64,000 bases of DNA. Origin: Botryllus schlosseri (lineage: Eukaryota). The notes below the pieces were generated by a model. That model did no database searches. It was given only the letters and a program-made list of their open reading frames with translations, and was not told the origin of the DNA. The position numbers were made by a program, and so were the translations under genes. Location of the stretch: contig CM119371.1 of assembly GCA_051294905.1 (NCBI GenBank), positions 4,900,001 to 4,964,000 of the forward strand, written 5' to 3'. The first letter of the stretch is position 1; each line of letters starts with the position of its first letter. This document shows positions 787 to 48,456 of this stretch, one piece after another.

Positions 787-2316
787 AACCCAACTAGGTG
801 TCCACTCCCAACCCATGTCCATTCTTGTCATAAATTTCCGGGAATATTTAGTTGGGTGTGGCTCAAAATGCATTCTTAGTTTGGCTGTCAAAGTCGACGT
901 TTCTTGCTGGGCTCAAATCTATAATCTTCACCTCGATGTTGGTTTTCAGAAATACGTTCTCGAGCTGTCAAGACAAATTTCTCATTCAGTTCAACATGTA
1001 GGCAATATAGCTAAACTAATAATGTAGTTAGTTGAAGATCAACTAACTATTGTTAATTTAACTAGTTCCAGTTCTAATTCTAGTTGCACAGTTTCAAAAA
1101 CTTTAGTTGCTAAACAACTAGAACACATGTGTCAATGTTTGGCGTGAATCGTGATACCGGTATTCTGTTGTTTGATGTTCTTGCAGCCATTGCTAGATCA
1201 GAGACATTACTACTATAAGTGAGGGAGGCTGGGGGTGTATTTTGGGGGTCGAAATCGGTGCATTCAAAAGTCGAAATGCCGAATGATTGGATCTCAAATA
1301 TTTCTCAGCTCATTTACAATACAGCCATTTGTATTATACGTTATTAGTTAGTTTTAGGTTTGTTAGTTGCGGATTCTTAATGTTTGTCACGGTAATTATA
1401 GTTCTTAGAGCGCATTTTGAAAATCGAGAAGTTTGTACATATCTGGTTCCTGCAAGCAATGTCACCTTGATATCTCTGTGAATAATCTTACAATCATGAA
1501 GATAAACAATATCAATACTCATGGGATTGCTAGAATACAAACAACTACAGTATTTGTCAGGCACATTCAAAGCTGCGCTTTTCAACCAGAATTACAATTA
1601 TAGCTACACATTTCCCCCAAATTAGATTAGAATAACTGATTGGTGGTAGAGAACCTGAACACACCGATTCGGTTTCGAATCTAACCTGTTCTATGTCCTT
1701 TATCATGCCTGTCGCTCTTGATAAGAGGAACGCGAAAAGTTTTTCGAATCAATACACGTTACTGTGAATGCATCGTTGAAAGCTGTGAATTAGAATTGCT
1801 TAATTCATGAAAGCCATACAACAAAAATCAAGGTAACTTGATATCAGTTCTAAATTCCCTGTCATAAAGCAACGGAATGACAAATGTCTGTACACCAAGC
1901 TTTGCTAGTTACGTACTATAAAATTCTCCTGCAGTATTTTCAGGAAACCAGAAAATAAATTACAATCGAAATAAGAGCTTGGAAACATTTAACAAATTAG
2001 ATTACAAGTAGATTACCAGTATTTGGTTCTAATTAGTATTATTAGACAACAAGAATTATCTAGTTGTTCAAGTCTGTTAGTAGGCCTAATCAACGTTACA
2101 GAGCTGATGAAATTGTGACCTCCACCCATTGAGAGACATTACAGTTATATCAAGGAAATACTTTTACCTTTCTTTTGTACAACTCGAGAGCGACGTAGAC
2201 AAATCCTTGTCTTCAAAAAATCCGTGAAATCCAACAACATGCTTGTGATTCAAACTGCTATGGAGATTAATCTCTTGACACATTTTGTCTTTCTCATGCT
2301 CATTCACGACCAGTGC
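787..2316 (-). pseudogene. PLK1/polo-like kinase partial copy L5 (exon-2, -3 and -4 relics)
   Basis: Exon 2 at 2316-2168 (cag|[38 protein letters not shown]...|gt); exon 3 3' part about 1515-1466 (IVYLHDCKIIHRDIK|gt); exon 4 at 964-about 787 (cag|LENVFLKTNIEVKIIDLSPARNVDFDSQTKNAF*ATPN*IFPE...). Frameshifts and stops present. Confidence 0.85.
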
Positions 2317-3335
2317 CTGAAATTCAGTTTTGTACAAATTACCGGCTCGATAGTAGACGGTCAAATAACCAACTGTTTTTGAGTACGGCTAGTTTTAGTT
2401 AGTTTTGAAAACTGAGTAGTTCTAGTTCTATTTCTAGTTTCTAGCATTCTGATGTACAGCAGTTTGCACAAGTCAGATGAAATTTGCATTGTATTCAGAT
2501 ACTGTTTTATATGCGGAATGAGTTTTGAACTAGGACAAGAAGCTGAAACGTACAATCAGGAGATATTACCAGTTCACGTAAGTCAGGAGTTAGTTTATTT
2601 TAATAAGGTACCATGCAATGAGAGCCCGACCGATTATATCGTTTGGCCAAAAATGTCGAGTCTTATCGTAAAGTTTGAACGGTATTGCCCATTATAGGTA
2701 AAAATATCAACAATTTTGGTGTCGTGAGAACATGGTAGTGTGCAGTCAGAGAACGGAAGTCTGCACTAACTTGGAATATTCTTATAACTTACAAGTGGTC
2801 AAAATAGTCATCGTTGGAACTCGAGTATAGAAGTAACGTCGTAATTTCTACTCTATTATAAGCAGAAGTAGCGATTTACAAGGAAGGTAATCAAGTAAAC
2901 ATTATACGCCTAGTTTTGCATGAACACTGCACTGTTACATAGGAAGTACACAAGTCGTCTAAAATCATTTGAGTGACTTGAGTAAATAATGCATGTATAC
3001 AGCAAAACCTACTTGAGTACTCTGAATAAGTATAAGTAGTATTGTTACTGACTGCCTCTGCTTACAAGCGTCCTTTGGTCTTTAATGTCTTAGCATAGTA
3101 ACAGCCGTCATTTGTTTGAATAAATGATCTGAAGGTTTGGAATTGTGCCTTAAGCGAGTTGCCATATTATTTCAATAACAGATGAATACGTCGGAGATAT
3201 CAGTGTAAGTGATACTTATCGCTATTAGCTTAAAAATACGATATCGGTTGGGCTCAAGTTATCATGAATGAGACTCGATTCAGAATCGAATCACTTAGGA
3301 AGTCGATTTTGCAAAGACCTGCGAAAAAATCTTAT

Positions 3336-3496
3336 CGTTCAAACTCTGCAGATGACTCCTTTGCTGTAGTTGGCTTTCTGAAAGTATGGGCAAGCAAGTT
3401 GTTCAAGCAGTTTGTGGGCAGCTTCTGTGGAATGTAGCCGTTGAAATACTCACTGGCTCGCACTTTCTTTACAGAGGATTGTCACTCGCCAACTTT
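3336..3496 (-). pseudogene. PLK1-like exon-6 relic (kinase C-terminus), copy L4
   Basis: cag|..LASD...EYFNGYIPQKLPTNCL resembles PLK1 MLQTDPTARP...EFFTSGYIPARLPITCL; frameshifted, donor mutated. Confidence 0.75.
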
Positions 3497-4057
3497 CTGG
3501 TGAAAATCACAAATAGTAATAAAATCACAGACAATAACTCATATTTTGTAAGATTGTTTGGTAACCAGGATTTATGGATTTAAAACTATCATATGAATCA
3601 AAATTTGAATTTCAAATAGGGAACTGTTTCCCTATTTGGACAGGAAGAGATTTAAGTATCATGATTGTAACCACACTGACTATTGAACTTGGCCCTCGAT
3701 GAATTCATCCTTCGGTAAACTCGGCCTATGGTGAATTTGGTAATAAAATCATTATAAATGTCGTGAATTGTATAATAGTAATTTGTCATTGGAGATAATG
3801 GCGAATTGGTGGTGGTGGACATGCCGTACGTATGAATGCCATTATATTCAAGTTCTCAAAAATGGAAGTTTTGTTTTGCGCACACTGTGGTAGATCCCGT
3901 GGAGACGTCGCACTTTCGTGGAGGTGTGCCATGCTGAGGCAAGGTGAGTGTCTGATTAAAAGACTACACCAAGTCGGTTTGGTGCCCTCCTATCTTGTTG
4001 TGCATTGATTTGATAGAAATTTTAATAAATTGATGTCTGAAACATGGCTTGCCATAC

Positions 4058-7000
4058 CAAACACGACTTTATCCGTATAATCCAACCTCTTGCTAATCAA
4101 AATACCGGTAGTGGTGCGGCTGCTGTGGCACTTCCGCCTCATCTGTTGAATTGAAAGCAGTTTTAATATACATAAATTGCACATTGGTCTAGTGCTAACA
4201 ATCTTATCGACAATGTCATTTAAGCGCGAGAGCAGTTATTTGAATCTATGATATTAGAGCAAATCGATATGGACACAGGATTTCTGATAACTTTGAAATT
4301 CAACATTAGTTTTGACTTTTACTGACATTTGTAAACGGGAATATTCAATGCGAAATTCTCTAATATCTGTCAACTTGATAAGAGTATGGAATTCCTAATC
4401 ATTTTACCATTTCGAAAAATTTCAGACAATTCTGCAATTATACATCTGCCATCTTCATGCCACACAGTAAAGACTGTTCGTGAGGTTATCAGGGGTTAGC
4501 TCCAAGCGAAGTCCATTGTTAATAATCACTTATATGTAGCATCTTGTCATTTCTGAATCAGGTGTTAGGTTTCTAGTCGAGATTCTCTCATTATCACGTC
4601 GTAACAGTATGGATGACATGGTAAGTTTAAATATCTGCTTTTTATACGACCACAAACAATATAACGTCATTTATACAGCACATTAAAATCACTGGTTTGT
4701 AGAAGTAGCTTACATTTCATAGAGCAATTCAGCTTAAGATGAAACCTATAAGTGGTTATAATATAGGCCTAAATACCAACCCATATTTACAGCAGACTTC
4801 TGTCTGGGATTTGCATCAATCAATTACTTGAGCTGAGCTTGAAATTCTGTCATATGGAAGTCTGGTGATTGGTTGCTGCATATGATGGTCGCTCTGACTT
4901 GTCACCAACAGGTGTGTGTCTCTGTAGTATCGCACCTGTAAAATGAAATGCTACTTTAAAATATAAAATAACCAGTATAGCAAAATATAAGAAATTCACC
5001 ATGAAGGTAATTCGGCAAATTCCTATCAAACGAGTTCTTGTAAGCCTAGGCTGCTTGGCTTCTTACAAGATTGCTAGCGCCAGAGTTGCGTAACTAGAGA
5101 ATTTTCAGCTTTTTTTGCTTAGATTAGAATTAGAAATATAGATACACATTAATTTCAAAGATAGATTAGAATTAGAATGATTTTGTGATAGCTACAAAGT
5201 TTTTTTCCCAAATCAGAGCACATTTAGATTCGTAACTACGCAGCTATTTCCTAATTAGATTAGAATTGGAACGAGTGAGATCATGAAAATTTGGAAATTG
5301 AATCAAGATAACTTCATATCAGGTCAAAGTTGATTCTCGTGTACGTGAGGATGGCAAATGTCTGTACAGCAAGCTTGGTTCATTTTGCATGACACAGTTC
5401 CTTTGTAGCATTTTTAGGATAACCCAGAAATTAGATGAGGCTGGATATGAGAGCATAGCAACATGTCATAAATTAAATTAGAATCTGATGATCAAAATTT
5501 CGCTCTACTAAATCAACTTAGACATCCAGAATCACCTGGATGCAGCAATTGGCTGATGCTTCAGAGACAAACAAATGGAGGTTGATTGAGAACTGATCCA
5601 GGAATTATGACGCGACCGTAGGTCACTTTGACGTGGTTGAAATCTCGACATTCCTCTGTAAATACCACACATTTACAAAGTAGCCTACTTTCGGGGACCA
5701 CAAGATAACACTACAGACATAAAGGATAGCATCAATTAGTAGGGCTGGCCACAACCATCCACAACTTCAATTAGACTCCATCATCAACTGCAATGATTCG
5801 GAGTCAAGCAGTGAGAGCCATGAAAAATTAGTCGACATTCACATCACGCCAAGAGCCAAATATCAACAATGTTTTAGTATCAATACTTTATTTCTACTTT
5901 CGGAGTCCTCATCAACTCAGTTAGCCGTATCTTAGCATCGAAAAAAGGTTGCTATCATTCTAATGCTAATCTTATTCAAAAATGAATAAAATGTTCTAGT
6001 TGTCCGACTTTGCTTATCTGTGAAGGTGCTAGTTATCGGTTTTATCGGTATTGGCTAAAAAATCTGATTTTGGTCAAGCTCTCATCGTAAACCTGCTGTG
6101 GAATTGTAAGAAATCTCACCGGTGAAGATTGTCTCGCGTTGACATTTGCGATAGGCAAGCAGATGGTTGGTAGTTTTTGAGGCATGTAGGCTTTCAAAAA
6201 GCAGCTGGACACAACTCGCTTGCGCAGAAGGTCCTTGAGATGGGTCAATAGACAACATGCTGTGGACAAAAAAAAATCATGGTAGGTTAGTGTTGATATC
6301 GTGTCGCTATATTCGTATATCTACCGAAAATATACACTTCTTGTCCCTAAAAGTTACCGTAATTTATCAATGAGAATCATAGTTTCATTGGCATTTCCAC
6401 TGTGGAAGGCTGTAAACCTCGATAGGCAATATTGACTACATTGTGATCAAGCCACAGCATTGTCACAAAGTACAGTGAAATAGGTATGGTCGAAAATGAC
6501 TTAATTATCTTTATAATGAGATGTCGCACCGACATTATATTCATAGTGGCAGGGCTGTGATGGCTAGATTCATGACTCGAAACGAGTCCTAATTTTTTAG
6601 TGACACGACTCAAGTCATTTTTTCAGGCTAGTAATACGATTTGACTCGAGTCACCTTGTGTATTGACTAGACTTGTACTCGAGTCATTGTGCATGACTCA
6701 AACCAAGACATATGATTTGGATGATCAAGAAAGACAGCTCATTGTAACTTCGAAGAATATTAAAACCACCACAAGATAGGTAATTGGTCTGTCAGAAACT
6801 GTTAGGTCTGAGGGGAAATACGGTGTTATGAATGTGAACACTTCTACATCATTCTAGCAGAGTTAAAAATTGGTTTGAATCGGTTTGAGCTCAACACTCG
6901 ACAGTTAACACAATGACTTGGACTCGGACTCCAGCCTCAGCACTTGGGCTTGGACTCGACCATCTACTCATTCGCTTGCACTTGACTGGTTGGTGGATAA

Positions 7001-9737
7001 AAAATGACTCGACTTGACTCACTACAAAAGTGATATTGCCTTGCGAATCGGGACCATGTGACTTGGTTACCAACCCTGCATGACGATCGCATAAAATGTG
7101 CATATTTGGAATTTGCATACTCTTTCATAATGTTATGACGCCATGAGAGATACTCAAATATTCGACTCGATTAATAACCAAATCACTCAAGTACTCGATT
7201 TTGCAAAACGCTATCTTTAAGACATATGTAACCTCCTTTTATGAAGTCCCAGTTCAATGTTGCATTACACGCACAAAACACAACCCAGCGACTAGTTGTT
7301 TGCTTAGAAACTGCGTCCCTTCTTTCCGAGATCTTCAGGGGCAATATGGTTGTGTGGGCCTCATGAAGTTGATTTGGTATCCAGGCCAAAATCATCTACC
7401 TTCGCCTCCATGTTATTGTGCAGAAACAGGTTGCCAAGCTGCCAATACAAATGTCACAACTAGTTAAACAAAAGTATTGATACTTGTACATTGTACCAAC
7501 TACCTACTGCTTTTTTGAGTAGTTCAAGTTATCGACGCGGACTTGAAAAGTGAGTAGTTCCGAGTCACAAGTCAATCTCACTTTTATAGTTTTGACTCAA
7601 GTCAAGTCGATTCATTTTCAATTCACCACTGAGTCAGGTCCGAGTCAAAGTCAGCTAGTAGAAAGTGCAGTCCAAGTTACTGTGTTTTGACTCGAGTTCG
7701 GGTCCAAGTCATTCTGTTCACTGTTCAGTTATCAGTCAAATCGCGTTCACTTAATTTCAACTCTCCTCAAGTGATATAGAATGGCTCGAATTCATACTAC
7801 CGTTAATTTCGTCAGTTCAACAGTTTCTGGCCCTATTTTCAAGTATCAGGACTGATATACAAGATACCAATTTTCCAAGTCACAGTGACAGTCCGCCATT
7901 TCACTCATTTCAACAAATGACTCGAGTCATGTCGAGTCATCAAAAATCGCGACTTGAATTTGACTCGAGTCGAGTCATGACTCAAGTCATTACAAACCTG
8001 GCTCAGAGTCATCACGCCAAACAGTGGTATAGGAAGGGCTGAGTATTAAGGGTCGAAACCACCCCTGTTTCAAACTCGAACCCCACAAATTTGAGATGTC
8101 AGTTCTATCTCCGATATAGCTCAGCTCATTTGTAAATTAGCAACCTAAAAATCATTAGCAAGTTGTGTATTGCAGTTAGCTTGCAGCAGATTTTCAATGG
8201 TCGTTGGTTCTTGTTGCGCATGTTGGAAATCCAGTAGTTTATCCAAGTCCACTTTTGAGAGCTTGTAGCGCCATCAATCATTTTACGTTAGTGGTACATA
8301 ATGTGCATAGTTTTATCCACAAATTGACAAACCAATCATCGGTCGGCTCTGGTTCTGACATCATTTTCGAAGAATATTTACGAATGCACCACTGCATACA
8401 ATGTTACCTTGCTATCTCTGTGAATGATTTTACAATCGTGACGATAAACGACACCAAGCAGAATCCGTTGCTTGTGATAACGAGTCTCTGCTTCTGTGAC
8501 GACGCATCTCTTTTTGTAAACTTCCATCAGCGACTGACAACAAAAGTATAATGTAATTAGATCGCTGGAATGAGAAAAACAATAATATTTGTTTGACACA
8601 CGCAAATCAGTGGTTCTCAATCTTTCTGAGTTTGAGGGACGGTAAAATTTGACAGCAGTTTTTGCAGACCGGAAAACCTTCCTAACTTTATTTAATACTA
8701 GCTTTTTATACTGAAGGTGTAATAAATAGGGCTGGCTAAAATAGAGTACCTGAGTGATTTGATTCTGAATCGGGTAATGAGTTTGAGTCACCCATGTTAA
8801 CTTCATAGCAACACCACAAAGAACACAATGCCAATTCTAGTCATATTATAAAGATTATTCGGCACTTTTTTACCATTACTATTTCATCACGCTATGAGAC
8901 AATGCTTTAGGTTGCTCACGACTTCACAGACATGTCATTTTCAGCAACGTGCATAGCTTTGCATTACATGTTTCGTGTACTGCGATACGACCAATCAAGG
9001 TTCACAGATTTTCACAGTGGGAAAATATAATTCCCGAAAGTTCAATTCAGCTCATAGTTAATAAATTTTTTCCATTTTGAGGCATGGAGCGTATATTGTC
9101 AGCACTCGAAACAGTCATTTCATACTACTCGACTCAAATTATCAGAATTGATCTCGATTCAGGTTTGAGTCATTAAATCATTGTGCCCAGCCCGAGTGAT
9201 CACCGTTGTGTCACTAGAAAATGATCACATTATCCAAACTAGATTGGAATTCCAATAATATTGAACATATTTTTCCAAATTAGATTAGAATTTAATTATC
9301 TAGCTGGGAAAAGAAATCAAGTTCAGTTCATATCAATTCGGACTTGATTATCATAAGCATGAGAATAGTTCACCAATCTTGACTTGTTTCACACTATAAG
9401 TGTAGAATTAGTTGACTAATTAGATTTGAATTACATGACAAGTACTTCGTCATATTTAGCCTAATACATTATAGAAGAATATTTATTTGGTTATCCAAGT
9501 CTGTTGGTAATGAACATGACAGATCTAATGCATTTTCGACCGGCGCAGTTAGAGGTACATTACGTTTATAATGAGGAAATACTTTTACACTTCTTCTGCA
9601 CTACTCAAGAACGACGTCGACGAAATCCTTGTCTTGGAACAATCCCTGAAATCCAACGATGTACTTGTGATTGAAACTTCGACGGAGACTGATCTCTTGA
9701 CATATTTGTCTTCCTCATGCTTGTTCACAAGCAATGC
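4058..9737 (-). pseudogene. PLK1-like partial copy L3 (exons 2,3,4,6,7,8); most complete unit, reaches polo-box 1
   Basis: Exon 2 at 9737-9589; exon 3 at 8533-8408 (SLMEVYKKRCVVTEAETRY...HDCKIIHRDSK); exon 4 at 7438-7275 (LGNLFLHNNMEAKVDDFGLDTK...HIAPEDLGKKGRSF*...SLGCVL); exon 6 at 6259-6093 (AYMPQKLPTICL); exon 7 at 4935-4781 (PDFHMTEFQAQLK*LIDANPRQKSAVNM); exon 8 at 4142-4058 (DEAEVP...PVF/ISKRLDYTDKVVFG, cf. PLK1 EEAEDP...FWVSKWVDYSDKYGLG). The exon 7/8 junction G|AT restores Asp. Confidence 0.9.
6550..8000. mobile_element. Two further GACTCGAGTC-rich MITE copies (about 6550-7078 and 7560-8000); relatives at about 1-200, 28020-28213, 37919-38156, 46560-46982, 47456-47992 and 54738-54930
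   Basis: Same internal sequence and palindromic motif arrays as 37263-37844; CAGGG/CAGTG-type ends; TSDs eroded. Confidence 0.7.
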
Positions 9738-11308
9738 CTGGAATTAGATACTAGATTTAGTTGCGGATCTTAAAAATTGAGTAATTCTAGTTCTAGTTGT
9801 GTATGTAAAAATATTTTAGTTGTCGATCAACTAGAAAACACGTGTCTTCGTTTGTCGTGAATCATGATATCGGTTTTCCGTTGTGTGATGTTCTTGCAGC
9901 TGTCTCAGAGTCGTCACTACTAATAATGGTGAAGCCGCAAGGCAAAACCTTATTGCGTACTCTGTAAAAGTAAAGGTACTATTGCTACTGACTGACTCTG
10001 CTTCTACGCGTTCAGATGCATTCTTACTAGTTTATTTCATGTCCAAGTATAGCAACGCCAGCAAAGTGGTTCAAATAAATACTATGAAGGCCTGGAAATA
10101 TGTCTTAAGCTAGTTTCCATATTATTTCAATAGAGGTCGAGGTTATCGGTGAAGGTGCTACATATTGGTATTGGCTCAAAAATAAGATATCTGTCGTGTC
10201 GGGCTCTATTCATGATGAGACTCGAGCACGCGACTCGTAACATAATACTCCATTCAGAATCCAATCAATCAGGAACTCGATTTTGCCAAGACTTACCCAA
10301 ACTCACTGTTGAAACTCAGGAGAGGACGCCTTTGCTGTAGTTGGCTTTCCGAAATTCTAGGCGCCATCATTAATCAGGTTATGGGAAGTTTCCGTGGAAT
10401 GTAGCCGTTGAAATACTTGTTCGCCGGCACTTCCTTTACAGGGGTTGATTTCTAACATTCCAAAGAGAAGATCACAGATACGAACAAAAACAGAGATAGT
10501 ACCCAACATTTTCATAACATTGTTTGTTAATCGGGATTTGTGAATTCAAACCAATCAAGATTCGTATTTGGATAGAAATAGATTCAAGTATCAGATAAGC
10601 AGATTTGCAGACTTGGACAACTAGAAAATTTTCAGCTTTTCCAAATTAAACTAGAATTAGCATTACAGATACAGAGTTAATTTCCATATTAGAACATAAT
10701 TATGATGATATCTACACAGTTATTTCCCAATTAGATTAACATTAGAATGATAGTTACAAATTTTTTTCCGCATTAGATTAGAAAGAGAATAAAAGCTACA
10801 CAGTTTTTATAATAGCTGATTCCGTGAAACCTTGGGACATCGAATCAAGTTCAGTTGATATCAAATCAGAATTCATTCTCATCAGCACAAGAATGGCAAA
10901 TGTCTGTGCAGAAGCTTGGTTGTTTTCACAAGATACAGTTCTCCTGTAGCAATTACAGGAAAACCAGAAATTAGATCAGAATTGAGAGTATAGAAACACT
11001 TGTCATATTGAACAGTTGGTTTGTGGTACAGAACTTGAAGATAGCTTTCAATACAACATCCATTGTAGTAAAATATTTATTCAACTCGAAGACTTTTCGG
11101 GTGCCTCTTTTCAAGAGTTAACGGCACACTAAAGGGATTTAAACAGAATGAAAAGCAAAACCAAAAAGGCGAAGTATGACGCAACAATCAGAAATTACAT
11201 ACCATGAAGTCCGCAATGTAACGATGGCAACAATAACAAACTTGAAGAGTACGATACTAGTAACATAGCATTTTGAAACAAACAATAACAAACACGAATT
11301 AGAACGCA

Positions 11309-19566: not shown

Positions 19567-19611
19567 TATATCAAAATAATGAATTTTAGTGCCAGAATGC
19601 ATATCCATATG

Positions 19612-38160: not shown

Positions 38161-38829
38161 TGCGTCATCACGGAACCAGAGTCTAGTTATGATATGCAAC
38201 ATATTTTGCTTGGAGTCCTTAATCTTCATACTGGTAAAATCATTCACACGGATATCAAGGTGACATTTTGTTGCAGTGGTAACGTACTTGTACAAACTAC
38301 TGGACTATTGAAATATGCTACTAGTACTAAAACGAGACTTGCTCACTTTCCAGAATTTTCGACTAGAACTAGAACGAACGACAATTAAGAATCCACAACG
38401 AACTACTTAACTTGCATATGAATTACTGAATTGCCATGAACTAAAAAATAAGAACATGACACAACAGAAAAACGTTATCATGATTCATACAAAATGTGTT
38501 TTCTAGTTGCCCGACAACCAAACTTTTCAAATCTGCAACTAAATCTAATTAAAAAAGCAGTATTTTGTTGGCTATCAACGAACTAGATTGGTAATTTGTA
38601 CAAGTCTGGATGCTTGTGTAACAAAATGCGACATTTGTATTGACAGCTGAAGAATCGATTCCTGAACAACAATATAAAGATGAAGATATTCTGGCCTAGC
38701 TACCAAATCCGACTTTGACTACCAAAAAAAGACTACATTATGCGGCACACCCAACTGTATTGCCCTGGAAGTTCTAGGAAAATAAGGACACAGTTTCAAA
38801 GTGGACACCCGGTCGTTGGGTTGTGTTAT
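38161..38829 (+). pseudogene. PLK1-like partial copy R2 (exons 3,4)
   Basis: Exon 3 at 38161-38259 (VITEPESSYDMQHILLGVLNLHTGKIIHTDIK|gt); exon 4 at 38647-38829 ([45 protein letters not shown]|gtgagt), which keeps the TLCGTPN activation loop. Confidence 0.88.
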
Positions 38830-39507
38830 GTGAGTATGATGCAGCATTGAGGTCGTAATGGTCTTAGGTGTAGAGCTGGACAATACCGCGAACCCGAGTA
38901 ATTCGACTCTGAATCGAGTCGAGTATTTGAGTAGCATTCATTACAACGTCCACAACATTATGATTGAAGTGCAAAATTGCAATATGAACCTTTTATGCAA
39001 CCACAACAAATATACTGCCAGTTCTACATCATAATAAAGATAATTTTGTAGTTTTTCGGCCATGCTAATTTCATTGCACTTCGTGACAATGCTGTGAGTT
39101 GATATTTCATGGCTCCCACAGAGGAAAATCATATCAAAACTATAATTCTCATTGATGGATTTCATCTTAGTAACCAGGAGCGTATCATTTTAAAACTAAA
39201 AAATCATCACTCAATTCTCGACTCTAATCATTAGAATTGATGCTCAACTCAGATTCCAATATCAGAATCATTGTTTCCAGTCCTAGCCATAAGCCTCCCA
39301 ATCGATAACTTGATGCATTTTTTAATTTACCCTTGGTATACATGGTTGGCCAGTAAGGTACCATAATGGATTTTCGAAATGTGCAACTATAGCTAGAACT
39401 ACTCCCTTTTCCAAGTCCACATTTAGAAATAAGACTAGTCAGAGGAAGACGTAGTTAGTTGCTCGTCACCTAACTAGATTGGTTATTTGAACGAATCTCA
39501 ATTTCAG

Positions 39508-39645
39508 GAAATGTCATCAGAAAGACAAAATGTGTCAGGAGATCATCAATGTTGCTGCTGGAATCACAAGCAAGTCGTTTGATTTTGCGGATTTTTCCAA
39601 GACGAGGATTTTTTCTACATCGTCCTCGAGTTGTGCAAAAGAAGG
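39508..39645 (+). pseudogene. PLK1-like exon-2 relic, copy R3
   Basis: cag|..HQKDKMCQEII...GFFQDEDFFYIVLELCKR|gt, frameshifted. Confidence 0.8.
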
Positions 39646-40236: not shown

Positions 40237-41784
40237 GCTTTGCTGGTGGATGATCGTCAGAAAGACGGAATGTGTCAAAGTATCATCAATATCGCATTTT
40301 GAATCACAAGCACGTCATTGGATTTTGCGGAATTTTATCACTCGCTGACTTGGATAACCAATTGATATTAAGTAAACTTATTTTTGGTGGATTTCATTTG
40401 CGGATTCCGTAATTCTAGTCTAATTTGTAAAAAATAAATAATATATAGCTGCCACAAAAGGTAAACAAACTGAGCCAATGAGAGATTGAATTTATCAATG
40501 AGAATTATGGTTCGATGGTATTTTCCACTGTGGAAAGCTACAAACCTCGATAGGTCATATCACAGCATACGTAACACGTAGCACAAAGCTAAACAAGTCA
40601 CTTGAAATGACATATCTGTGAAGTCGTGATCAACTCACAGCATTGTCGTAATGTGTAATGTAATCGGTATGTTTTGCATATTTACAAACTTAGCAAATTA
40701 TCCATGCTGGTATGGCATCATGATAAGTGATGCTCCAATAGTAGGTTAAGAGCCACTGATTCAGATGTTGCCAACAAATAATATTGCTGTTTTCATCTTA
40801 TCAATTTGATTACCTTTCCTTTATGTTTTCAGTCGTTGATGGAAGTTTACAAAAAAGACGCGTCATCACAGATCCAGAGACTCGTTATTGCATGCGACCG
40901 ATTCTGATTCGTGTCGTTATCTTCACGATTGTAAGATCATTCGCAGAGGTATCAAGGTAATAATTGTAGCGTAGTTGTTCAATAAAACTAGTTAGAGCGA
41001 TTGCCTGTTATCTAGTTTTGTCAAAGTTTTCCATGTGCTCATTAATCTAATTTCTGGTTTTTCTGAAATTGATAGATTGGAACTATATCTTGTGAAACCA
41101 ACCAAACTCGGTGTACAGCCACTTGCCATTCTTGAGCTTGTGCGAATAAACTCAGATTTGATATGAAATGAACTTCATCCGATGTCCAAGGTTTTGTCAA
41201 ATCAGTAATTCTAATTGTCATTTAATTTTGACAAATTTGTGTAGCCGTCATTCTAATTACTGTCTGATTTGAAGAAAAACTGTTTAGTTTTCATTCTGAT
41301 TCTAGTCAAATTCGAAACAAAAACTGTGTAGCTGTCATTCTAATTGTACTCTCATATGGAAAAAAACTTTGTAAATGTACTTTAATTCTCATCCTGATAT
41401 AATTTCCTGAAGCTGAAAATTTTCTAGTTGTTTAAGTCTGCAAATCTGCTTCTCCTGATCGTTGAATCTCTTCCTATTCAAACGCGGAATTAGTTTACGA
41501 TATCAAATCTATATCTGCATGCGTATTATAGTTCTAATTCCACACATCTTGATTTCTAAATATATTTGGCAATATGTGAGTTAGTATCTGTGATTTGATT
41601 ATTATCTGTGCATTTCTCACTAGAATGTTGGCAAGCGACCCGTCTCATTGAACCTCCGTAGAAGAAATACTGGCGAGCGAGTTCTCTAACGGCTACATGT
41701 CACGGAAACTGGCACAAACTGCTTGACCTGGCGCCCAGGTTCTCGGAAAGTCGTCACCAAAGCGTCCTCAGCAGAGTTTGAACG
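40237..41784 (+). pseudogene. PLK1-like partial copy R4 (truncated exon 2, exons 3 and 6)
   Basis: Exon 2 at 40237-about 40335; exon 3 at 40833-40956; exon 6 at 41624-41784 (MLASDPSH*TSVEEILASEFSNGYMSRKL...). Confidence 0.82.
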
Positions 41785-42590
41785 GTAAGATTTTTTCGTA
41801 GGCCTTAGCAAATTCGAGTTCGCGATTGATTCGATGCTGAATTGAGTATTGCATTTCGAGCCGCGTACTCGAGTCTCACTCATGATAACTTGAGCCTAGC
41901 TGATATCGTATTTTGAGCCAATACCGATAAGTAGCTCTTTCACCGATAACCCAACTATATCCGGCCGATATTGAAATAATATGGCAACTAACTCAAGGCA
42001 CATTTCCAAACCTTAAGAGCATATATTTGAACAACGTTATGGCCGTTGCTAAACTTAGATATGAAATAAACTAGAAAGGATGCATCTAGACACTTGTAAG
42101 CGGTCAGTAACGAAGCACTTCTACTTTTACCGAGTACTCAAATAGGTTTTATCGTACCCTTGCACTAATTACTTGAGTCAGTCAAGTGATTATGATTTTA
42201 GACTACTTGTTTACCTCCTACGTAACAGTTCAGTTTTTACTCAAAACTAGGTCTACAATAACTACTTTACTACCTACTTCAGAATCGTTTCTTCAGCTTT
42301 TACTTGAGCAGAAATTACGACATTACTTCTATACTCAGGTACTAACGGTGACTATTTTGACCACTCGTAAGCTATAAGAAATCGATGAATATTCCCATTG
42401 TAGCAATCATAGAGGATAGTTCTCTGACTGCCTGCTTTCATCTAGTGACGTCACACAACAGAACACCAGTACGACGACATGCATTTTCTAGTTTTTTAAC
42501 AACTGTATTTGTTTGAATCTGCAACTTGAATTAGAACTACTCACTTTTCATAATCTGCAACTAAAACTAGTGCCGGTATCTGAATTTCAG

Positions 42591-44241
42591 GCACTTCTCG
42601 TGAAGCATCATCCGAAAGACATAATGTGCCGAGAGATCCGCCTCCATCGCAGTTTGAATCACAAGCAAGTCGTTGGATTTCACGGATTCTTCCAAGACAA
42701 GGATTTACATTGTTCTCGAATTGTGCAGAAGGCAAAAGAAGGGTAAAAAAATTATTTACTTGACACATGTCCAGTAGTGGTATGTGTGGTAACAGTATAT
42801 ATGATGCACACACACACCCTGGCCCGACCGCATAACTCATAAAACTTGTCACGCAGCTGTACTTGACTACTCCAATTTGTGAAATGTTCCTGTACTCTCA
42901 TTCTTATTCTAATCTATTCACTGGTTTTCCTAAAAATGCTACAAGAGAACTGTATAGTGCAAAACGAACCAAGCTTGTTGTACCTATACGTACAGACATT
43001 TGCCATTCTCATGCTTATGAGAGCAAACGCACAATTGATGAAATGAACTTGATTTGTGTTTTATGTCTATTGCGAATTATGTAATTATATTTCTAAATAA
43101 ATTTTGAAAAATATTTCGCTGTCTTTCAACTTCCCATCTAATTTAGGAAAATATAGATATCTTAGATATTCCCAACAAACAATATTATTGATTTCATTAG
43201 ATCAATCCAATTATCTTTTTATTTTGTTGTCAGCCACGGATGGAGCTTCACAAAAGGAGGCGTGCCATCACAGGACCAGATACTTGTTGTTGCATGCAAC
43301 AGATTCTGCTTGGAGTTGTTTATCTTCAAGATCGTAAGATGATTCACAGAGATATCATGGTAATATTGCTTGCAGTAGTGCATTGTGCTACGTCAGAGGT
43401 GGTCAGTAACGATGGAACGTGCCAAGCTTACTGTACAGACATTTGCGATTCTTGTGCTTATGAGAAGGAACTCTGGTTTGGTATGAATTGAACTTCATTC
43501 CATGTCCCAAGGTTTCGTGAAATCAGTCACGGTACTTTAATCTAATTTTGAAAAATCTGTGTAGCTATCATTCGAAATTTAGTCTGATTTCAAGAAAAAT
43601 GGGGCATCTTCAATTCTAATTCCAATCGAGTACCATAAAATGTGTAGCTATTATTATAATTTCAATCTAATTTCGAAAATTGTGGACATATCATCATAAA
43701 TATACTGTAATATGGAAAAACTTTGTATCTGGAATGCTAATCCTAGTCTAATTTGAAAACGGGGGAACATTTTATAGTTGTCCAAGTCTACATATAGGTT
43801 TATCATGATACTTGAATCTCTTCATTTCCGGAAACGGAAATAGTTTACTATTTTAAAGAATTTCCGGAAGTTTTGTTGACCAATGTCTAAGTTGAAGCAA
43901 AACCATTTAAAATATACATTGAAATAATTTTCCAACCACAGAGACTTAATTCAGTCCACAAAGGGTTAAATCTTGATTTGTTTTATTGTTTGAAATCCAC
44001 AAATCCTGATTGCCAAACAATTTTATAAAAACATGAGTTACTATCTGGGATTTGATTACCATTTGTGATTTTGTCACTGGAATGTAGGCGAGTGACCCGA
44101 CTCAACGGCCCTCTATAGAAGAAGTGCTGGCGAGCTTGAACGGCAACATTCCTCAGCAACTACCCACAACCTACTGGACGATGGCGCCTAGAATTTCGGA
44201 AAGCCGACCACAGCAAATGCTTGCTCTCCTGAGTTTCAACA
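42591..44241 (+). pseudogene. PLK1-like partial copy R5 (exons 2,3,6)
   Basis: Exon 2 at 42591-42742 ([38 protein letters not shown]); exon 3 at 43234-43359 (MELHKRRRAITGPDT...MQQILLGVVYLQDRKMIHRDIM); exon 6 at 44081-44241 (ASDPTQRPSIEEVLASLNGNIPQQLPTTYWTMAPRISE). Confidence 0.88.
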
Positions 44242-47200
44242 GTGAGTTTTTCGTAGGTCTTGGCAAAATCGAGTTCCTGATTGATCGGATCTGGATCGAG
44301 TATTACGTTTTGAGACGCGTACTCGAGTCTCATTCATGATCACTAGAGCCTGACCGATATCGTATTTTTGAGCCAATACCAACAAGTAGCACCTTCACTG
44401 ATAACCTCGATATATTCGACCTATTTTGAAATAATATGGCAACTAGCTCAAGACACATTTCCAAACCTTCAGCACATTTATTTGAACCACTTTTTGCGGC
44501 CGTTGCTAGACTTGGACATGAAATAAACTAGAAAGGATGCAACTAACGCATGTAAGCGGAGTCAGTCCGTAGCAATAGTAGAGAAAACTAAAAGGATTTG
44601 CCTGCGGCTTCACCATTATTGGTAGTGATGACTCTGAGACGGCTGAAAGAACATCACACAACGGAAAACCGGTATCATGATTCACGACCAACGAAGACAC
44701 GTATTTTCTAGTTGATCGGCAACTAAAATATTTTTACATGCACAACTAAAACTAGAACTACTCACTTTTTAAAAGCCGAACTAAAGCTATTATTCCAATT
44801 TCAGGCATTGCATGTGAAGTAGCAGGAGAAAGATGAATGTATCAAGAGATGAGTCTCCGTCGAAGTTTAAATCGCAAGCACGTCGTTGGATTTCAAGGAT
44901 TGTTCCAAGACATGGATTTTGCCTACGTCGTTCTCGAGTATCTAGTGTAAAAGAAGGTAAAAGAATTTCCTCGTTACAAATGTAATGTACCTGTTACTGT
45001 GCTGGTCGAAAATGCATTAGATCTGTCATGTTCATTACCAGCAGACTTGAACAACCAGATCATTATTGTTGTATACCGTAATATATTAGGCTAAATAGGG
45101 CGAAGTACTTGTGATGTAATTCAAATCTAATTAGTCAACTAATTCTACATATGTAGTTTGGTGAACTATCCTCATGCTTATGATAATCAAGTCCGAATTG
45201 ATATGAACTGAACTTGATTTCTTTTCCCAACTAGGTACTTAAATTCTAATCTAATTTGGATGAATGTGTTCAATATATTTCTAATCTACTTTGAATAATG
45301 TGAAATTTTCTAGTGACACAACTGTGATCACTAGTGCTGGGCACAGTGATTGGATGACTCAAATCTGAATCGAGTATCAATTCTGATAATTTGAGTCGAG
45401 TAGTAGGAAATGTTTGTTTCGAGTGCTGAAAATATACGCTCCATGCCTCAAAATTGAAAATTTATATCAACTATGAGCTGAATTGAACCAGTGGGAATTA
45501 TATTTCTCGCTATGAAAAGCTGTGAACCTTGATTGGTCGTATCGCAGCATACGAAACATGTAGTACAAAGCTATTCACGTTACTGAAAATGACATGTCTG
45601 TGAAGTCGTGAGCAACCTAAAGCATTGTCCCATAGTGTGATGAAATAGATATGGTAAAAAAGTGCCAAATAATCCTTCTAATATGACTAGAATTGGCATT
45701 GTGTTCTTTGTGGTGTTGCTGTGACTTTAACACGAGTTACTCAAACTCATTACTCGATTCAGAATCAAATCACTCAGGTACTCTATTTTAGCCAGCCCTA
45801 TTTATTTCACGTTCAGTATCAAAAAGCATGTATTAAATGAAATTTGGAAGGTTCACCGGTCTGCAAAAACTGTTGTCAAATTTGACCGTCCCTCTAACTT
45901 AGAAAGATTGAGAACCACTGATTTGCGTGTCAAACGTATATTATTGTTTTTCTCATTCCAGCGATCCAATTACATAATACTTTTGTTGTCAGTCGCTGAT
46001 GGAAGTTTACAAAAAGAGATGCGTCGTCACAGAAGCAGAGACCCGTTATCGCAGGCAACGGATTCTGCTTCATGTTGTTGATCGTCACGATTGTAAAATC
46101 ATTCACAGAGATATCAAGGTAACATTGTATGCAGTCGTGCATTCGTAAGCAATCTTCGGAAATTTTGTCAGAAACAGAGCTGGCCGATAATTGGTTTGTC
46201 AATTTGGGGATGAAACTATGCACATTATCTACCACTAACATAAAATAATAGATGGCGCTACAATCTCTCTAAAGTGGACTTGTACAAACTACTGGATTTT
46301 CAACATGCGCAACAAGAATTGGAACTGCTCACTTTTCCTAATTCTTTACTAGTACCAACAACCATTGAAAATCAGCCACTAACTAACTAATACACAACTC
46401 GCTAATGATTGTTTGGTTAATAAATTACAAATGAGCTGAGAAATATCGGAGATAGAATTGGCATCTCAAATTGATGGGGTTTTTAGTTTAAAACGGGAGT
46501 GGTTTCGACCCCCAATACTCAGCCCAGCCTGTACCATTGTTTGGCACGATGACTCAGAGCTAGGGCTGTCATGAGTCAACTCAAGTCAAACTCGAGTCGC
46601 GCTTATTTGGTGACTCGTCTTGACTCGATACATATGACTGTCACTGTAACTTCGAAGAATAGTGAAGTCGCCACATGATTGGTATTCCCTATATCAGTCT
46701 TGAAAATAGGGCCAGAAACTGTAAGACTGATGAAAATAACGATAGTATGAATGCAAGTGATTCTATATCACTCGAGGAGAGTTGGACAAAGTGAATTGAA
46801 ACGGATTGTAATGATAACTGGACATTGAACATAATGACTTGGACTCGAGTCAAAACGCCATAAATCAGACTACACTTTTTACTATCTGACTCTGACTCGG
46901 ACTTGAGTCGGTGGTGAATTGAAAATGAATCGACTTGACTCGAGTCAAAACTTTAAAAAGTGAGATTGACTTGTGACTCGGAACCACTCACTTTTCAAGT
47001 CCGCATCTATAACTTGAACTACTCAAAAACAGTAGGTATTGGCCAGCAAGTAATTGGATTGGTAGTTTGTACAAGTCTGTTTACTTTTGTTTAAATAATT
47101 GCGAAATTTGTATTGACAGCTTGGCAACCTGTTTCTGAACAATAACATGGAGGCGAAAATGATTTTGGCCTGGATACCAAATCAACTTTATGAGGCCCAC

Positions 47201-48456
47201 ACAACCATATTACCCCTGTAGATCTCAGAAAGAAGGGACGCAGTTTCGAAGGAAACAACGAGTCACTGGGTTGTGTTTTGTGTGTGTAATGCAACATTAA
47301 ACTGGGACTTCATAAAAGGAGGTTATATATGTCTTAAAGATAGCGTTCTGCAAAATCGAGTACCTAAGTGATTTGGTTATTAATCGAGTCGAATATTTGA
47401 GTATCTCTCATGACGTCGTAAATTCCAAATATGCACATTTTATGCGATCGCCATGCAGGGTTGATAACCAAGTCACAAGGTCCCGAGTCGCAAGGCAATC
47501 TCACTTTTGTAGTTTTGACTTGAGTCAAGTCGAGTCATTTTCAATTCACCAACCAGTCAAGTGCAAGTGAATGAGTAGATGGTCGAGTCCAAGCCCAAGT
47601 GTTGTGGCTGGAGTCCGAGTCCAAGTCATCGTGTTAACTGTTGAGTGTTGAGCTCAAACTGATTCAAACCAATTTTCAACTCTGCTCGAATGATTTACAA
47701 TTGCTCACATTCATAACACCGTATTTCCCCTCAGACCTAACAGTTTCTGGCAGACCAATTACCAATCTTGTGGTGATTTTAATATTCTTTGAAGTTACAA
47801 TGAGCTGTCTGTCTTGGCCATCCTAGTCATATGTCCTGGTTTGAGTCATGCACAATGACTCGAGTACAAGTCGAGTCAATACACAAGGTGACTCGAGTCG
47901 AATCATATTACGCGCCTGGAAAAATGACTCGAGTCGTGTCACTAAAAAATTAGGACTCGTTTCGAGTCATGAATCCAGCCATCACAGCCCTGCCACTGTG
48001 AATATAATGTCGGTACTACATCTCATTATAAAGATAATTTAGTCATTTTCGACCATACCTATTTCACTGTACTTTGTGACAATGCTGTGGCTTGATCACA
48101 ATGTAGGCAATACCGCATATCGAGTTTTACAGCCTTCCACAGTGGAAATGCCATTGAAACTAATTCTCATTGATAAATTATGGTAACTGTTAGGGACAAC
48201 AAGTGTATATTTTCAGTAAATATACGGATATAGCGACACGATATCAACACTAAAATACCATGATTTTTTCAGCATTTTGTCTATTGACCCATCTCAACGA
48301 CCTTCCGTGAAGCCAGTTGTCTCCAGCTACTTTGTGAAAGCCTACATACCTCAAAAACTACCGACCATCTGCTTGCCTATCACAAATGTCAACGCGAGAT
48401 AATCTTCACCGGTGATATTTTTACACAGCAAGTTAACAATTAGATCTTGACCAAAA
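43160..48456. repeat. Inverted segmental duplication A, right arm
   Basis: See left arm. Lacks the Penelope insertion together with some flanking sequence. Confidence 0.9.
44805..48431 (+). pseudogene. PLK1-like partial copy R6 (exons 2,3,4,6); inverted twin of L3
   Basis: Exon 2 at 44805-44956; exon 3 at 45993-46118; exon 4 at 47120-47279 (LGNLFLNNNMEAK/DFGLDTK...); exon 6 at 48273-48431 (IDPSQRPSVKPVVSSYFVKAYIPQKLPTICL). Confidence 0.88.

What the first reader, a model, noticed from the sequence alone, without database searches (positions are those of the whole stretch)
787..48431. Exon-scrambled amplicon of a divergent Polo-like kinase 1: 34 exon copies, no intact gene
Seen: exon 1 x3, exon 2 x9, exon 3 x9, exon 4 x4, exon 5 x1, exon 6 x6, exon 7 x1 and exon 8 x1, with introns co-amplified, in repeated 2-3-(4)-6 modules. 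Kinase N-lobe exons are strongly over-represented and only one clear polo-box exon exists. Known: PLK1/polo is a conserved, normally low-copy mitotic/meiotic kinase. Inference: DNA-level birth-and-death amplification of a cell-division kinase, a pattern associated with germline conflict loci. It could also yield truncated dominant-negative products or small RNAs against the parent gene. The ORF track shows only scraps, so standard annotation would miss it.
Basis: partly seen in the sequence, partly recalled or inferred. Interest (0 to 1): 0.8.

Follow-up and report, generated by a model that had tools for sequence, protein, structure and literature searches.

The report
Decayed tandem array of PLK1 pseudogene fragments
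Two inverted stretches of this animal genome hold 34 broken exon copies, introns included, of a Polo-like kinase 1 gene; they look like neutrally decaying debris of old DNA duplications rather than a working gene or conflict locus.

Summary
tblastn with PLK1 proteins finds 34 exon-like pieces: exon 1 x3, 2 x9, 3 x9, 4 x4, 5 x1, 6 x6, 7 x1, 8 x1. Seventeen lie on the minus strand (797-17409) and 17 on the plus strand (34433-48384). Reversed and shuffled controls give no hits. Introns and most splice dinucleotides are co-duplicated.

The source is clearly PLK1. The consensus of exons 2-3 is 88% identical to an intact 570-aa PLK1 (P0125).

No unit can encode a protein: 9 of 9 exon 2 copies and 4 of 4 exon 4 copies carry stops or frameshifts. 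All four exon 6-to-exon 2 junctions are homologous. This points to one partial intragenic duplication that was then propagated in tandem, followed by a 4.5-kb inverted duplication and repeat insertions.

Evolution looks neutral. In the youngest pair, exon identity equals non-exon identity (88.7% vs 88.3%). The codon-model omega is 0.85 and not distinguishable from 1.

RNA reads from three runs land almost only on high-copy repeats, and no listed joint links two PLK exon pieces.

The germline-conflict, dominant-negative and small-RNA ideas have no support, although small RNAs could not be tested. Partial PLK1 pseudogene copies are already described in Daphnia pulex. Verdict: real but ordinary.

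The parts
17332..17409 (-). unit M1 exon 1 piece
   Evidence: tblastn P0125 aa 26-51, 65% id, E 2e-6
16714..16863 (-). unit M1 exon 2 (150 nt, in-frame stop)
15528..15653 (-). unit M1 exon 3 (open frame, donor GT changed to GA)
15066..15182 (-). unit M2 exon 1 (has ATG, then a stop)
14111..14257 (-). unit M2 exon 2 (indels and a stop)
12840..12958 (-). unit M2 exon 3 (7-nt deletion, stop)
11043..12686 (.). young palindromic insertion (arms 11043-11645 / 12083-12686, 99.5% identical) between exon 3 and exon 6 of M2; holds a 327-aa ORF of no recognised family
10272..10436 (-). unit M2 exon 6, type B (2 stops)
9589..9737 (-). unit M3 exon 2 (1-nt deletion, stop)
8408..8533 (-). unit M3 exon 3 (open, AG/GT kept)
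7274..7441 (-). unit M3 exon 4 (24-nt deletion, 3 stops), flanked by inverted copies of a high-copy repeat (6793-7054, 7557-7829)
6147..6267 (-). unit M3 exon 6, type A (frameshift: two overlapping HSPs in different frames)
4782..4883 (-). exon 7 piece (linker between kinase domain and polo box; 1 stop)
   Evidence: tblastn P0126 aa 333-366, 62% id, E 1e-8
4056..4235 (-). possible exon 8 (first polo-box) remnant; weak
   Evidence: E 0.32 with P0001; hmmsearch E 2; no Pfam hit; right strand and order after exon 7
3298..3498 (-). exon 6, type B (2 stops), start of the last minus-arm unit
2168..2316 (-). unit M4 exon 2 (1-nt deletion)
1466..1537 (-). unit M4 exon 3, 3' part only
797..967 (-). unit M4 exon 4 (2 stops)
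34433..34602 (+). unit P1 exon 1 (frameshift; stop right after the ATG)
35275..35412 (+). unit P1 exon 2 (12 nt deleted, 2 stops)
36592..36717 (+). unit P1 exon 3 (open, acceptor AG changed to AT)
37156..37263 (+). only exon 5 piece; weak, cut off by a high-copy repeat from about 37263
   Evidence: E 0.003; DNA read; repeat homology
38121..38259 (+). second exon 3 of P1 (homologous part 38167-38259; 5' part replaced)
38623..38830 (+). unit P1 exon 4 (frameshift, 2 stops)
39508..39645 (+). unit P2 exon 2 (indels, stop)
40237..40367 (+). unit P2 second, truncated exon 2 copy
   Evidence: E 0.063; 79.5% DNA identity to 39514-39596
40833..40956 (+). unit P2 exon 3 (two 1-nt deletions)
41610..41825 (+). 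unit P2 exon 6, type B (3 stops)
42591..42742 (+). unit P3 exon 2 (frameshifts)
43234..43359 (+). unit P3 exon 3 (open; the Lys of the HRDIK motif is Met)
44082..44243 (+). unit P3 exon 6, type B (1 stop)
44805..44956 (+). unit P4 exon 2 (frameshifts)
45993..46118 (+). unit P4 exon 3 (open)
47117..47280 (+). unit P4 exon 4 (deletions, 1 stop)
48265..48384 (+). unit P4 exon 6, type A (open)
6065..10558 (-). left copy of the youngest (inverted) segmental duplication: exon 6B of M2 plus the whole of unit M3
   Evidence: blastn 84% over 4611 columns; MAFFT 88% in matched columns
43982..48459 (+). right copy of the same inverted duplication: exon 6B of P3 plus unit P4

Best explanation
This is a cluster of unprocessed (DNA-duplicated) pseudogene fragments of a PLK1 paralog. 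It is the decayed remnant of a tandem array and has no present function.

Likely history:
1. An intact PLK1-type gene with introns of about 1 kb underwent a partial intragenic tandem duplication. This joined the sequence after exon 6 to the sequence before exon 2.
2. The exon 2-3-(4)-6 unit, 2.3-3.6 kb long, was propagated head to tail, most simply by unequal crossing-over. One sub-lineage lost exons 4-5 by deletion, giving the '2-3-6B' units.
3. Further local rearrangements produced the exon 1-2-3 units.
4. A 4.5-kb piece was later copied in inverted orientation. High-copy repeats and a young palindromic element inserted.

Shown here: the copies, their lesions, the shared junction, neutral divergence of the youngest pair, and PLK1 ancestry. 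Inferred: the order of events, unequal crossing-over as the amplifying mechanism, and the absence of function.
For: PLK1 ancestry:
- An exon 3 copy hits PLK1 best in the PDB: E 3e-7, against PLK2 at 2e-6 and PLK3 at 5e-5.
- A profile of 6 exon 3 copies retrieves two intact full-length proteins with kinase and POLO-box Pfam domains, P0125 (E 2e-21) and P0126.
- P0125 itself matches PLK1 kinase (1e-147) and PLK1 polo-box (5e-107) structures better than PLK2, PLK3 or PLK4.
- The majority consensus of exons 2-3 is an open frame, 81 of 92 residues identical to P0125. The next best of 194 PLK-like proteins compared, after P0126 at 83%, is 71%.

Pseudogene state:
- 9 of 9 exon 2 copies have a stop or frameshift.
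- 4 of 9 exon 3 copies are frameshifted, and 2 of the 5 open ones have lost a splice dinucleotide.
- 4 of 4 exon 4 copies and 5 of 6 exon 6 copies are disabled.

DNA-level tandem origin:
- Introns align between units.
- All 4 exon 6B-to-exon 2 spacers are homologous end to end.

Neutrality:
- In the youngest pair, exons are 627/707 identical and non-exon sequence 3230/3660, Fisher p = 0.80.
- GY codon model on 8 units, exons 2+3: omega 0.85, lnL -1262.97, against -1263.44 with omega fixed at 1. 2dlnL = 0.94, not significant.

No Pfam reverse transcriptase, transposase or helicase domain appears in 100 of the 115 ORFs of at least 75 aa. The 15 omitted ORFs were overlapping frames of the two zinc-finger arrays.
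Against: Among the older copies, exons are better conserved than flanking introns.
- Mean pairwise identity is about 79.5% in exons 2 and 3, against 43-68% in the flanks.
- Third codon positions of exon 2 are less conserved than first and second (74.5% vs 82%).
- A Nei-Gojobori comparison to the consensus gives omega 0.59.

So some early divergence may have happened under constraint, or gene conversion from a functional gene may have acted. Intron flank alignments at this distance are unreliable, however.

Other limits:
- Splice dinucleotides are retained more often than decay alone might suggest, but the numbers are small.
- Expression was probed in only 3 RNA runs of unknown tissue, with 3-6% of each run read.
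- Small RNAs were not probed.
- The rest of the genome could not be searched. The parent gene and other arrays are therefore unseen, and unequal crossing-over is not distinguished from other duplication mechanisms.
Confidence: 0.8

Rival explanations
1. Transposon-mediated gene-fragment capture. A Helitron-like or Pack-type element picked up PLK1 exons 2-6 with their introns, and the copies arose by transposition or rolling-circle tandem formation.
For: The partial unit with a single shared junction is what one captured fragment would look like. The arms are riddled with very high-copy repeats: summed DNA depth exceeds 100,000 at 1-647, 7118-7764 and 17470-18116, against roughly 85-650 in the bins with least repeat. 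Exon 4 of M3 and of P4 is flanked by inverted copies of one such repeat.
Against: - No transposase, Rep/helicase or reverse transcriptase domain in the 100 ORFs scanned.
- Units abut head to tail without intervening unrelated DNA, sharing intron-derived spacers.
- Bins holding mainly PLK exons have low DNA depth, for example 85 at 14882-15528. At 90% identity or more the exons are therefore not part of a high-copy family.
- Element termini were not searched for systematically.
Confidence: 0.08
2. A regulatory RNA locus. The two inverted arms are transcribed into long hairpin or dual-strand precursors that give endo-siRNAs or piRNAs acting on PLK1 paralogs. This could be a live or recently extinct germline-conflict system, with a suppressor array derived from an amplified gene.
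For: Inverted arms exist: 6065-10558 against 48459-43982, 88% identical in aligned columns. Multigene amplification linked to genetic conflict is a described pattern (PMC10618873, seen as a search listing and the start of its abstract only).
Against: - The arms are 33-38 kb apart and 12% diverged. The other units are 20-35% diverged from each other.
- The consensus is only 88% identical in protein to the closest intact PLK1, so long perfect matches to a parent mRNA are unlikely (inference).
- 97-98% of laid RNA reads are under 99% alike. 81-99% of them run on into unlike sequence, and they pile up on the repeat bins.
- No listed joint links two PLK exon pieces. The only RNA-supported joints, 5148>9270 and 10659>9271, have 22-24-nt sides and lie in repeats.
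- No Rfam family matches.
Confidence: 0.05
3. At least one unit still makes a truncated kinase-like protein or a functional transcript, for example an N-lobe fragment acting as a dominant negative.
For: 5 of 9 exon 3 copies and one exon 6 copy keep open frames. Most splice dinucleotides are kept. Older copies show somewhat better exon than intron conservation.
Against: Every exon 2 copy (9 of 9) and every exon 4 copy (4 of 4) is broken. All 3 exon 1 copies are broken or incomplete: two by a stop or frameshift, and M1 lacks its N-terminal part. No unit therefore offers an open exon 1-2-3 path. No listed RNA joint links two PLK exon pieces. The youngest pair evolves neutrally.
Confidence: 0.04
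4. Assembly artefact: mis-joined or collapsed reads of a single PLK1 gene give the appearance of scrambled exons.
For: Repeat-rich regions are prone to mis-assembly. DNA runs hold only 35-43% of the sampled 31-mers of 6065-10558.
Against: The copies differ by 12-35% and each carries its own lesions, which assembly errors do not produce. Contigs of DNA run X2 match 1547-1792, 3695-3910 and 5449-5692 with 0 differences, although that run may be the sample the assembly came from.
Confidence: 0.03

Closest known systems
Partial PLK1-like copies POLO-F to POLO-K of Daphnia pulex (Schurko, Logsdon & Eads 2009, PMC2680839; passages read)
   Same: These are lineage-specific extra PLK1 copies that are truncated, rearranged or carry stop codons. 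[quoted passage not shown]
   Different: The Daphnia report lists six gene models. As far as the passages I read show, it does not describe a head-to-tail array of one partial unit with a shared junction, nor inverted arms. Three of the Daphnia copies had EST or tiling-array signal; here no locus-specific RNA was seen. The organism of this window is not known to me. The closest named full-length PLK1s to P0125 are annelid, at 61-62% (names).
Unprocessed (duplicated) pseudogene clusters formed by tandem duplication and unequal crossing-over (general knowledge, recalled)
   Same: Introns and splice-site remnants are retained. Units lie head to tail with a common junction, carry independent disabling mutations, and diverge neutrally.
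   Different: The repeated unit is an internal part of a gene (exons 2-6) rather than whole genes. The array is also partly duplicated in inverted orientation.
Ampliconic conflict systems built from duplicated genes, such as Stellate/Su(Ste) and Dox/Nmy in Drosophila (recalled; general review PMC10618873 seen only as a listing and abstract start)
   Same: A cell-division or chromatin-related gene is amplified into arrays, with inverted or antisense copies that could give small RNAs.
   Different: Those systems keep highly similar copies, intact ORFs or active small-RNA production, and germline expression. Here copies are 12-35% diverged, all are broken, and no locus-specific RNA was seen.
Canonical PLK1 (human and zebrafish structures, such as 2rku and 3d5u; intact relative P0125)
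   Same: Exon translations match the PLK1 kinase domain from the glycine-rich loop to the end of the C-lobe, plus the linker. The consensus keeps the HRD and DFG regions.
   Different: There is no continuous ORF, and the polo-box domain is nearly absent. The copies share substitutions absent from P0125 and P0126, for example GFFQD instead of GFFED and HDCK instead of HDKK.

Membership tests
Polo-like kinase 1 (as the source gene) | Kinase-domain sequence closer to PLK1 than to PLK2/3/4 or other kinases | tested here: met
   PDB ranking is PLK1 > PLK2 > PLK3 for an exon 3 copy. The consensus of exons 2-3 is 88% identical to P0125, and P0125 is PLK1-type in both domains.
Polo-like kinase 1 (as the source gene) | C-terminal polo-box domain | tested here: inconclusive
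   Only one weak piece, at 4056-4235: E 0.32, HMM E 2, no Pfam POLO_box hit at E<=5. A linker exon just upstream of it is clear (E 1e-8).
Polo-like kinase 1 (as a functional member) | Continuous open reading frame with intact catalytic motifs | tested here: not met
   9 of 9 exon 2 copies and 4 of 4 exon 4 copies are broken.
Unprocessed (duplicated) pseudogenes | Intron-exon structure of the parent retained | tested here: met
   AG/GT remnants at exon ends and alignable introns between units.
Unprocessed (duplicated) pseudogenes | Disabling mutations and neutral evolution | tested here: met
   Lesions. Exon and non-exon identity are equal in the youngest pair, p = 0.80. Omega is 0.85, not significantly different from 1. 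Caveat: the older copies show better exon than intron conservation.
Unprocessed (duplicated) pseudogenes | No functional transcript | tested here: inconclusive
   Three RNA runs gave almost only repeat-derived partial matches. Only 3-6% of each run was read, and the tissues are unknown.
Processed pseudogenes / retrocopies | Intronless copy of the mRNA with a poly(A) remnant | tested here: not met
   Exon pieces are separated by introns of 0.5-1.3 kb that are homologous between units.
Transposon-captured gene fragments (Helitron or Pack-type) | Fragment lies inside an element with defined termini, or a linked transposon protein | tested here: inconclusive
   No transposon protein domain in 100 ORFs. 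Termini and target-site duplications were not searched for systematically. Genome-wide dispersal is not testable because no genome is held.
hpRNA / endo-siRNA or piRNA-producing inverted-repeat loci | Inverted arms transcribed and processed into small RNAs complementary to a target | not testable with these tools
   The arms exist. No long-RNA support was found. No small-RNA library or parent nucleotide sequence was available.
Ampliconic germline-conflict gene families | Many near-identical copies with intact ORFs and germline expression | tested here: not met
   Copies are 12-35% diverged, none has an intact ORF, and no locus-specific RNA was seen.

The most novel reading that the evidence does not exclude
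The array is the fossil, or a still weakly active remnant, of a germline conflict. In this reading, a divergent PLK1 paralog was amplified. The inverted arms (6065-10558 and 43982-48459) served, or still serve, as a hairpin or dual-strand small-RNA source that silences PLK1-paralog copies. This would resemble suppressor arrays such as Su(Ste) or Nmy.
Probability: 0.05. Interest if true: 0.7.

Novelty: new member of a known kind. Interest (0 to 1): 0.2.

Why it matters
The practical value is mainly for annotation and gene-family counting. The 34 PLK1-like fragments could be mistaken for extra polo kinase genes, or could seed chimeric gene models. They should be flagged as pseudogenic.

The locus is also a clean worked example of how one partial intragenic duplication, with a single exon 6-to-exon 2 junction, can grow into a multi-unit array and then decay neutrally. 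It shows that the lineage once had a PLK1 paralog distinct from the intact PLK1 represented by P0125.

It does not open a long-standing question unless small RNAs from the inverted arms are found.

Tried and rejected
- **Whole genome:** not held, so the intact parent, other arrays and copy number could not be sought.
- **Earlier findings of this scan:** none, whether searched by place, words, sequence or relatives.
- **Taxon from the neighbouring zinc-finger ORF:** only generic C2H2 hits at 46% identity or less, so uninformative.
- **Names for the closest intact PLK1s:** P0125 and P0126 are unnamed. A full-library search with P0125 gave only representatives at 66% identity or less. The species stays undetermined.
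- **Run search:** no RNA holder is listed.
- **Read laying:** no support for locus-specific transcription. This is not proof of silence.
- **Palindromic insertion at 11043-12686:** from memory I thought its ORF resembled the GIY-YIG endonuclease of Penelope-like elements. Pfam gave no such hit even at E<=5, so I dropped that label.
- **RNA and repeat scans:** Rfam gave 0 hits. tRNA scanning gave one dubious call. Tandem-repeat scanning found only the 84-nt zinc-finger periodicity and small arrays. Nothing bears on the PLK array.
- **Literature:** two searches for PLK1 pseudogene arrays or lineage-specific PLK expansions found nothing beyond the Daphnia paper.
- **Nei-Gojobori omega of 0.59 against the majority consensus:** I give it less weight than the ML codon model. 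It includes the misaligned rows M4 exon 3 and P2b exon 2, and it uses a consensus as reference.
Full report
**Material.** The window is animal DNA with about 38% G+C. No whole genome is held for it, and no earlier notes of this scan touch it.

A 152-aa frame from 8378-8836(-) matches solved PLK1 kinase domains best. The E-value is 3e-7, with PLK2 and PLK3 behind.

tblastn of three insect polo/PLK1 proteins, and later of the much closer P0125 and P0126, finds PLK kinase-domain pieces only in two stretches. These are 797-17409 on the minus strand and 34433-48384 on the plus strand.

With P0125 there are 39 HSPs at E<=1e-3. The reversed window and three shuffled windows each give 0.

Merged into exon pieces, the counts are exon 1 x3, exon 2 x9, exon 3 x9, exon 4 x4, exon 5 x1, exon 6 x6, exon 7 x1 and exon 8 x1. 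Three pieces are weak:
- the exon 5 piece (E 0.003);
- the truncated second exon 2 of unit P2 (E 0.063, but 79.5% DNA identity to its neighbour);
- the polo-box piece at 4056-4235, which has a match of about 10 residues, E 0.32, HMM E 2, and no Pfam POLO_box hit.

An HMM of three PLK1s run over all 2907 six-frame ORFs adds no significant pieces elsewhere. Between the arms there are only chance-level rows (E 3.5-46).

**2. Anatomy**

MAFFT alignments of the copies show real exon edges. Exon 2 is 150 nt and exon 3 is 126 nt, both in phase 0. AG is kept at 9 of 9 exon 2 and 6 of 9 exon 3 acceptors. GT is kept at 8 of 9 donors of each. Introns of 0.5-1.3 kb are homologous between units.

In gene orientation the minus arm reads:
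- M1: 1-2-3
- M2: 1-2-3-[palindromic insertion]-6B
- M3: 2-3-4-6A-7-8
- then 6B, followed by M4: 2-3'-4

The plus arm reads:
- P1: 1-2-3-5-3'-4
- P2: 2-2'-3-6B
- P3: 2-3-6B
- P4: 2-3-4-6A

Exon 6 comes in two sequence types. Type A follows exon 4. Type B sits in units that lack exons 4-5.

The four spacers that lead from an exon 6B to the next exon 2 align along their whole length. All these junctions therefore descend from one original junction.

M2 plus M3 look like a single gene with an internal duplication of exons 2-6, running on into the linker exon 7 (E 1e-8) and the possible exon 8.

**3. State of the copies**
- All 9 exon 2 copies carry a stop or a frameshift.
- Exon 3 is open in 5 of 9 copies. 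Of those five, M1 has lost its donor, P1a its acceptor, and P3 has Met in place of the catalytic-loop Lys.
- All 4 exon 4 copies have stops or deletions.
- 5 of 6 exon 6 copies are disabled.
- Two of the three exon 1 copies have a stop or frameshift. The third, M1, lacks its N-terminal part.
- Exon 7 has a stop.

No unit offers an open path.

**4. What was the source?**

A profile of six exon 3 translations (A1) retrieves P0125 (570 aa, E 2e-21) and P0126 (572 aa). Both carry kinase and POLO-box Pfam domains. Both sit on contigs of 1955 and 2385 nt, so their coding sequence is uninterrupted. I infer that these are spliced transcripts.

P0125 is PLK1-type in both domains. Its kinase domain scores 1e-147 to PLK1, against 4e-103 to PLK2, 1e-96 to PLK3 and 7e-62 to PLK4. 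Its polo box scores 5e-107 to PLK1.

The majority consensus of the nine decayed copies over exons 2-3 is an open frame. It is 81 of 92 residues identical to P0125 and 76 of 92 to P0126. The next best among 194 PLK-like proteins compared is 71%.

Most copies share substitutions that P0125 and P0126 lack. The founder was therefore already a diverged paralog, or P0125 belongs to a related species. I cannot tell which. The closest named full-length PLK1s to P0125 are annelid, at 61-62% (names). The species was not determined.

**5. Selection**

The youngest duplicate pair is 6065-10558 against 48459-43982, in inverted orientation. Exon columns are 627/707 identical (88.7%) and non-exon columns 3230/3660 (88.3%). 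Fisher p is 0.80.

A GY+F3X4 codon model was fitted to exons 2+3 of 8 units, with stops and gapped codons masked. The rows P2b and P1b were left out, and M4 contributed only its exon 2 and the last third of exon 3. It gives omega 0.85. Fixing omega at 1 costs 0.47 lnL units (2dlnL = 0.94), which is not significant. The tree is star-like, with internal branches making up 15% of its length, so a separate test on internal branches has no power.

Some results point the other way:
- A cruder Nei-Gojobori comparison to the consensus gives omega 0.59.
- Third positions of exon 2 are less conserved than first and second positions.
- Exons of the older copies are about 79.5% identical pairwise, against 43-68% in the flanks.

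Early constraint or gene conversion is therefore possible, although flank alignments at that distance are poor. Within sub-families, blastn identities of intron and exon are similar. For P2 against P3 they are 74-77% and about 76%.

**6. Expression**

One stretch (1-19400) was laid with bulk RNA run X23, single-cell RNA runs X21 and X22, and DNA run X2, at 90% likeness.
- 2352, 6226 and 5410 RNA reads were laid. Only 69, 138 and 139 of them are 99% alike or better.
- Shares of 0.99, 0.85 and 0.81 run on into unlike sequence.
- The reads pile up in the bins where summed DNA depth shows very high-copy repeats: 1-647, 7118-7764, 10353-10999 and 17470-18116.
- Among the joints listed (15 shown, 901 not shown), none links two PLK exon pieces. 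The RNA-supported ones, 5148>9270 and 10659>9271, have 22-24-nt sides and lie in repeats.

This gives no support for transcription of the array, but it is not proof of silence. Only 3-6% of each run was read, tissues are unknown, and no small-RNA data were available.

X2 contigs match three stretches with 0 differences. This supports the assembly there, although X2 may be the source sample.

**7. Mechanism and rivals**

The best reading is a decayed array of unprocessed pseudogene fragments. Its steps are one partial intragenic tandem duplication, propagation of the unit (most simply by unequal crossing-over), an internal deletion of exons 4-5 in one sub-lineage, a later inverted 4.5-kb duplication, and repeat insertions.

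- **Transposon capture** is less likely. There are no transposon protein domains in the 100 of 115 ORFs of at least 75 aa that were scanned. Units abut through intron-derived spacers. DNA depth is low over exon-only bins. Element termini were not searched for, however, and the genome could not be scanned.
- **A small-RNA or conflict role** is not excluded but has nothing in its favour beyond the inverted geometry.
- **An assembly artefact** does not explain copies that differ by 12-35% and each carry private lesions.

**8. Comparison with what is known**

Partial, rearranged or stop-containing PLK1-like copies are described in Daphnia pulex as POLO-F to POLO-K, interpreted as pseudogenes or remnants of partial duplications (PMC2680839, passages read). 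Two further literature searches found no other report of PLK1 pseudogene arrays.

Conflict-driven ampliconic families differ in keeping near-identical, intact, germline-expressed copies (review PMC10618873, seen as listing and abstract start only; the Drosophila examples are recalled). That is not the case here.

**Verdict**

The functional part is unsupported. This is a new example of a known kind, of low to moderate interest.

Noticed in passing
19612-21657 (-) and 57582-59495 (+): Two copies of a C2H2 zinc-finger array with a strict 84-nt (28-aa) period. They are 88% identical and in inverted orientation (19730-22219 against 59509-57042). The left copy is one open frame of 681 aa with about 20 fingers. 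The right copy is split by stops into frames of 438, 111 and 86 aa. Database relatives are only generic, at 46% identity or less.
   Followed up: partly
26683-31828 and 51189-56277: A 5.2-kb inverted segmental duplication at 93% identity, with no Pfam-recognisable ORF. Together with the zinc-finger pair and the PLK pair, the window holds three inverted duplicate blocks of different ages. Their order is not collinear, so there were at least two separate events.
   Followed up: partly
11043-12686: A young palindrome with 604-nt arms 99.5% identical, inserted in unit M2. A 327-aa ORF runs through it. From memory I thought of the endonuclease of a Penelope-like element, but Pfam gave no supporting hit.
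   Followed up: partly
1-647, 6793-7054, 7557-7829, 10353-10999, 17470-18180, 37263-37742, 46641-46985, 47479-47803: Very high-copy repeats, with summed DNA contig depth above 100,000 in run X2 and transcribed copies elsewhere in the genome. One family flanks exon 4 of units M3 and P4 as an inverted pair and truncates the only exon 5 piece.
   Followed up: partly
873-1100, 1590-1918, 2412-2993, 15803-16128: In DNA run X2, contigs about 95% identical to the window have roughly 3 times the depth (19-25) of contigs that match exactly (about 8). This hints at other haplotypes or further near-identical copies of the array elsewhere.
   Followed up: no
1069-1213, 9785-9900, 33895-34024, 38450-38547, 44622-44759: A repeat of about 120 nt lies just upstream of exon 4 in two units, just upstream of exon 2 in two others, and once upstream of exon 1 in the opposite relative orientation. 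It could be a small mobile element or a trace of further exon shuffling.
   Followed up: no
48582-48923 (+): A 114-aa ORF with a weak PHD-finger-like match (E 0.004, below the Pfam cut-off), directly after the end of the plus arm.
   Followed up: no
13848-13891: Hundreds of single-cell RNA reads (420 and 242, all on one strand) match only this stretch of about 43 nt, with two fixed differences and unlike sequence on both sides. This looks like a short piece shared with an expressed transcript from elsewhere, not expression of this locus.
   Followed up: no
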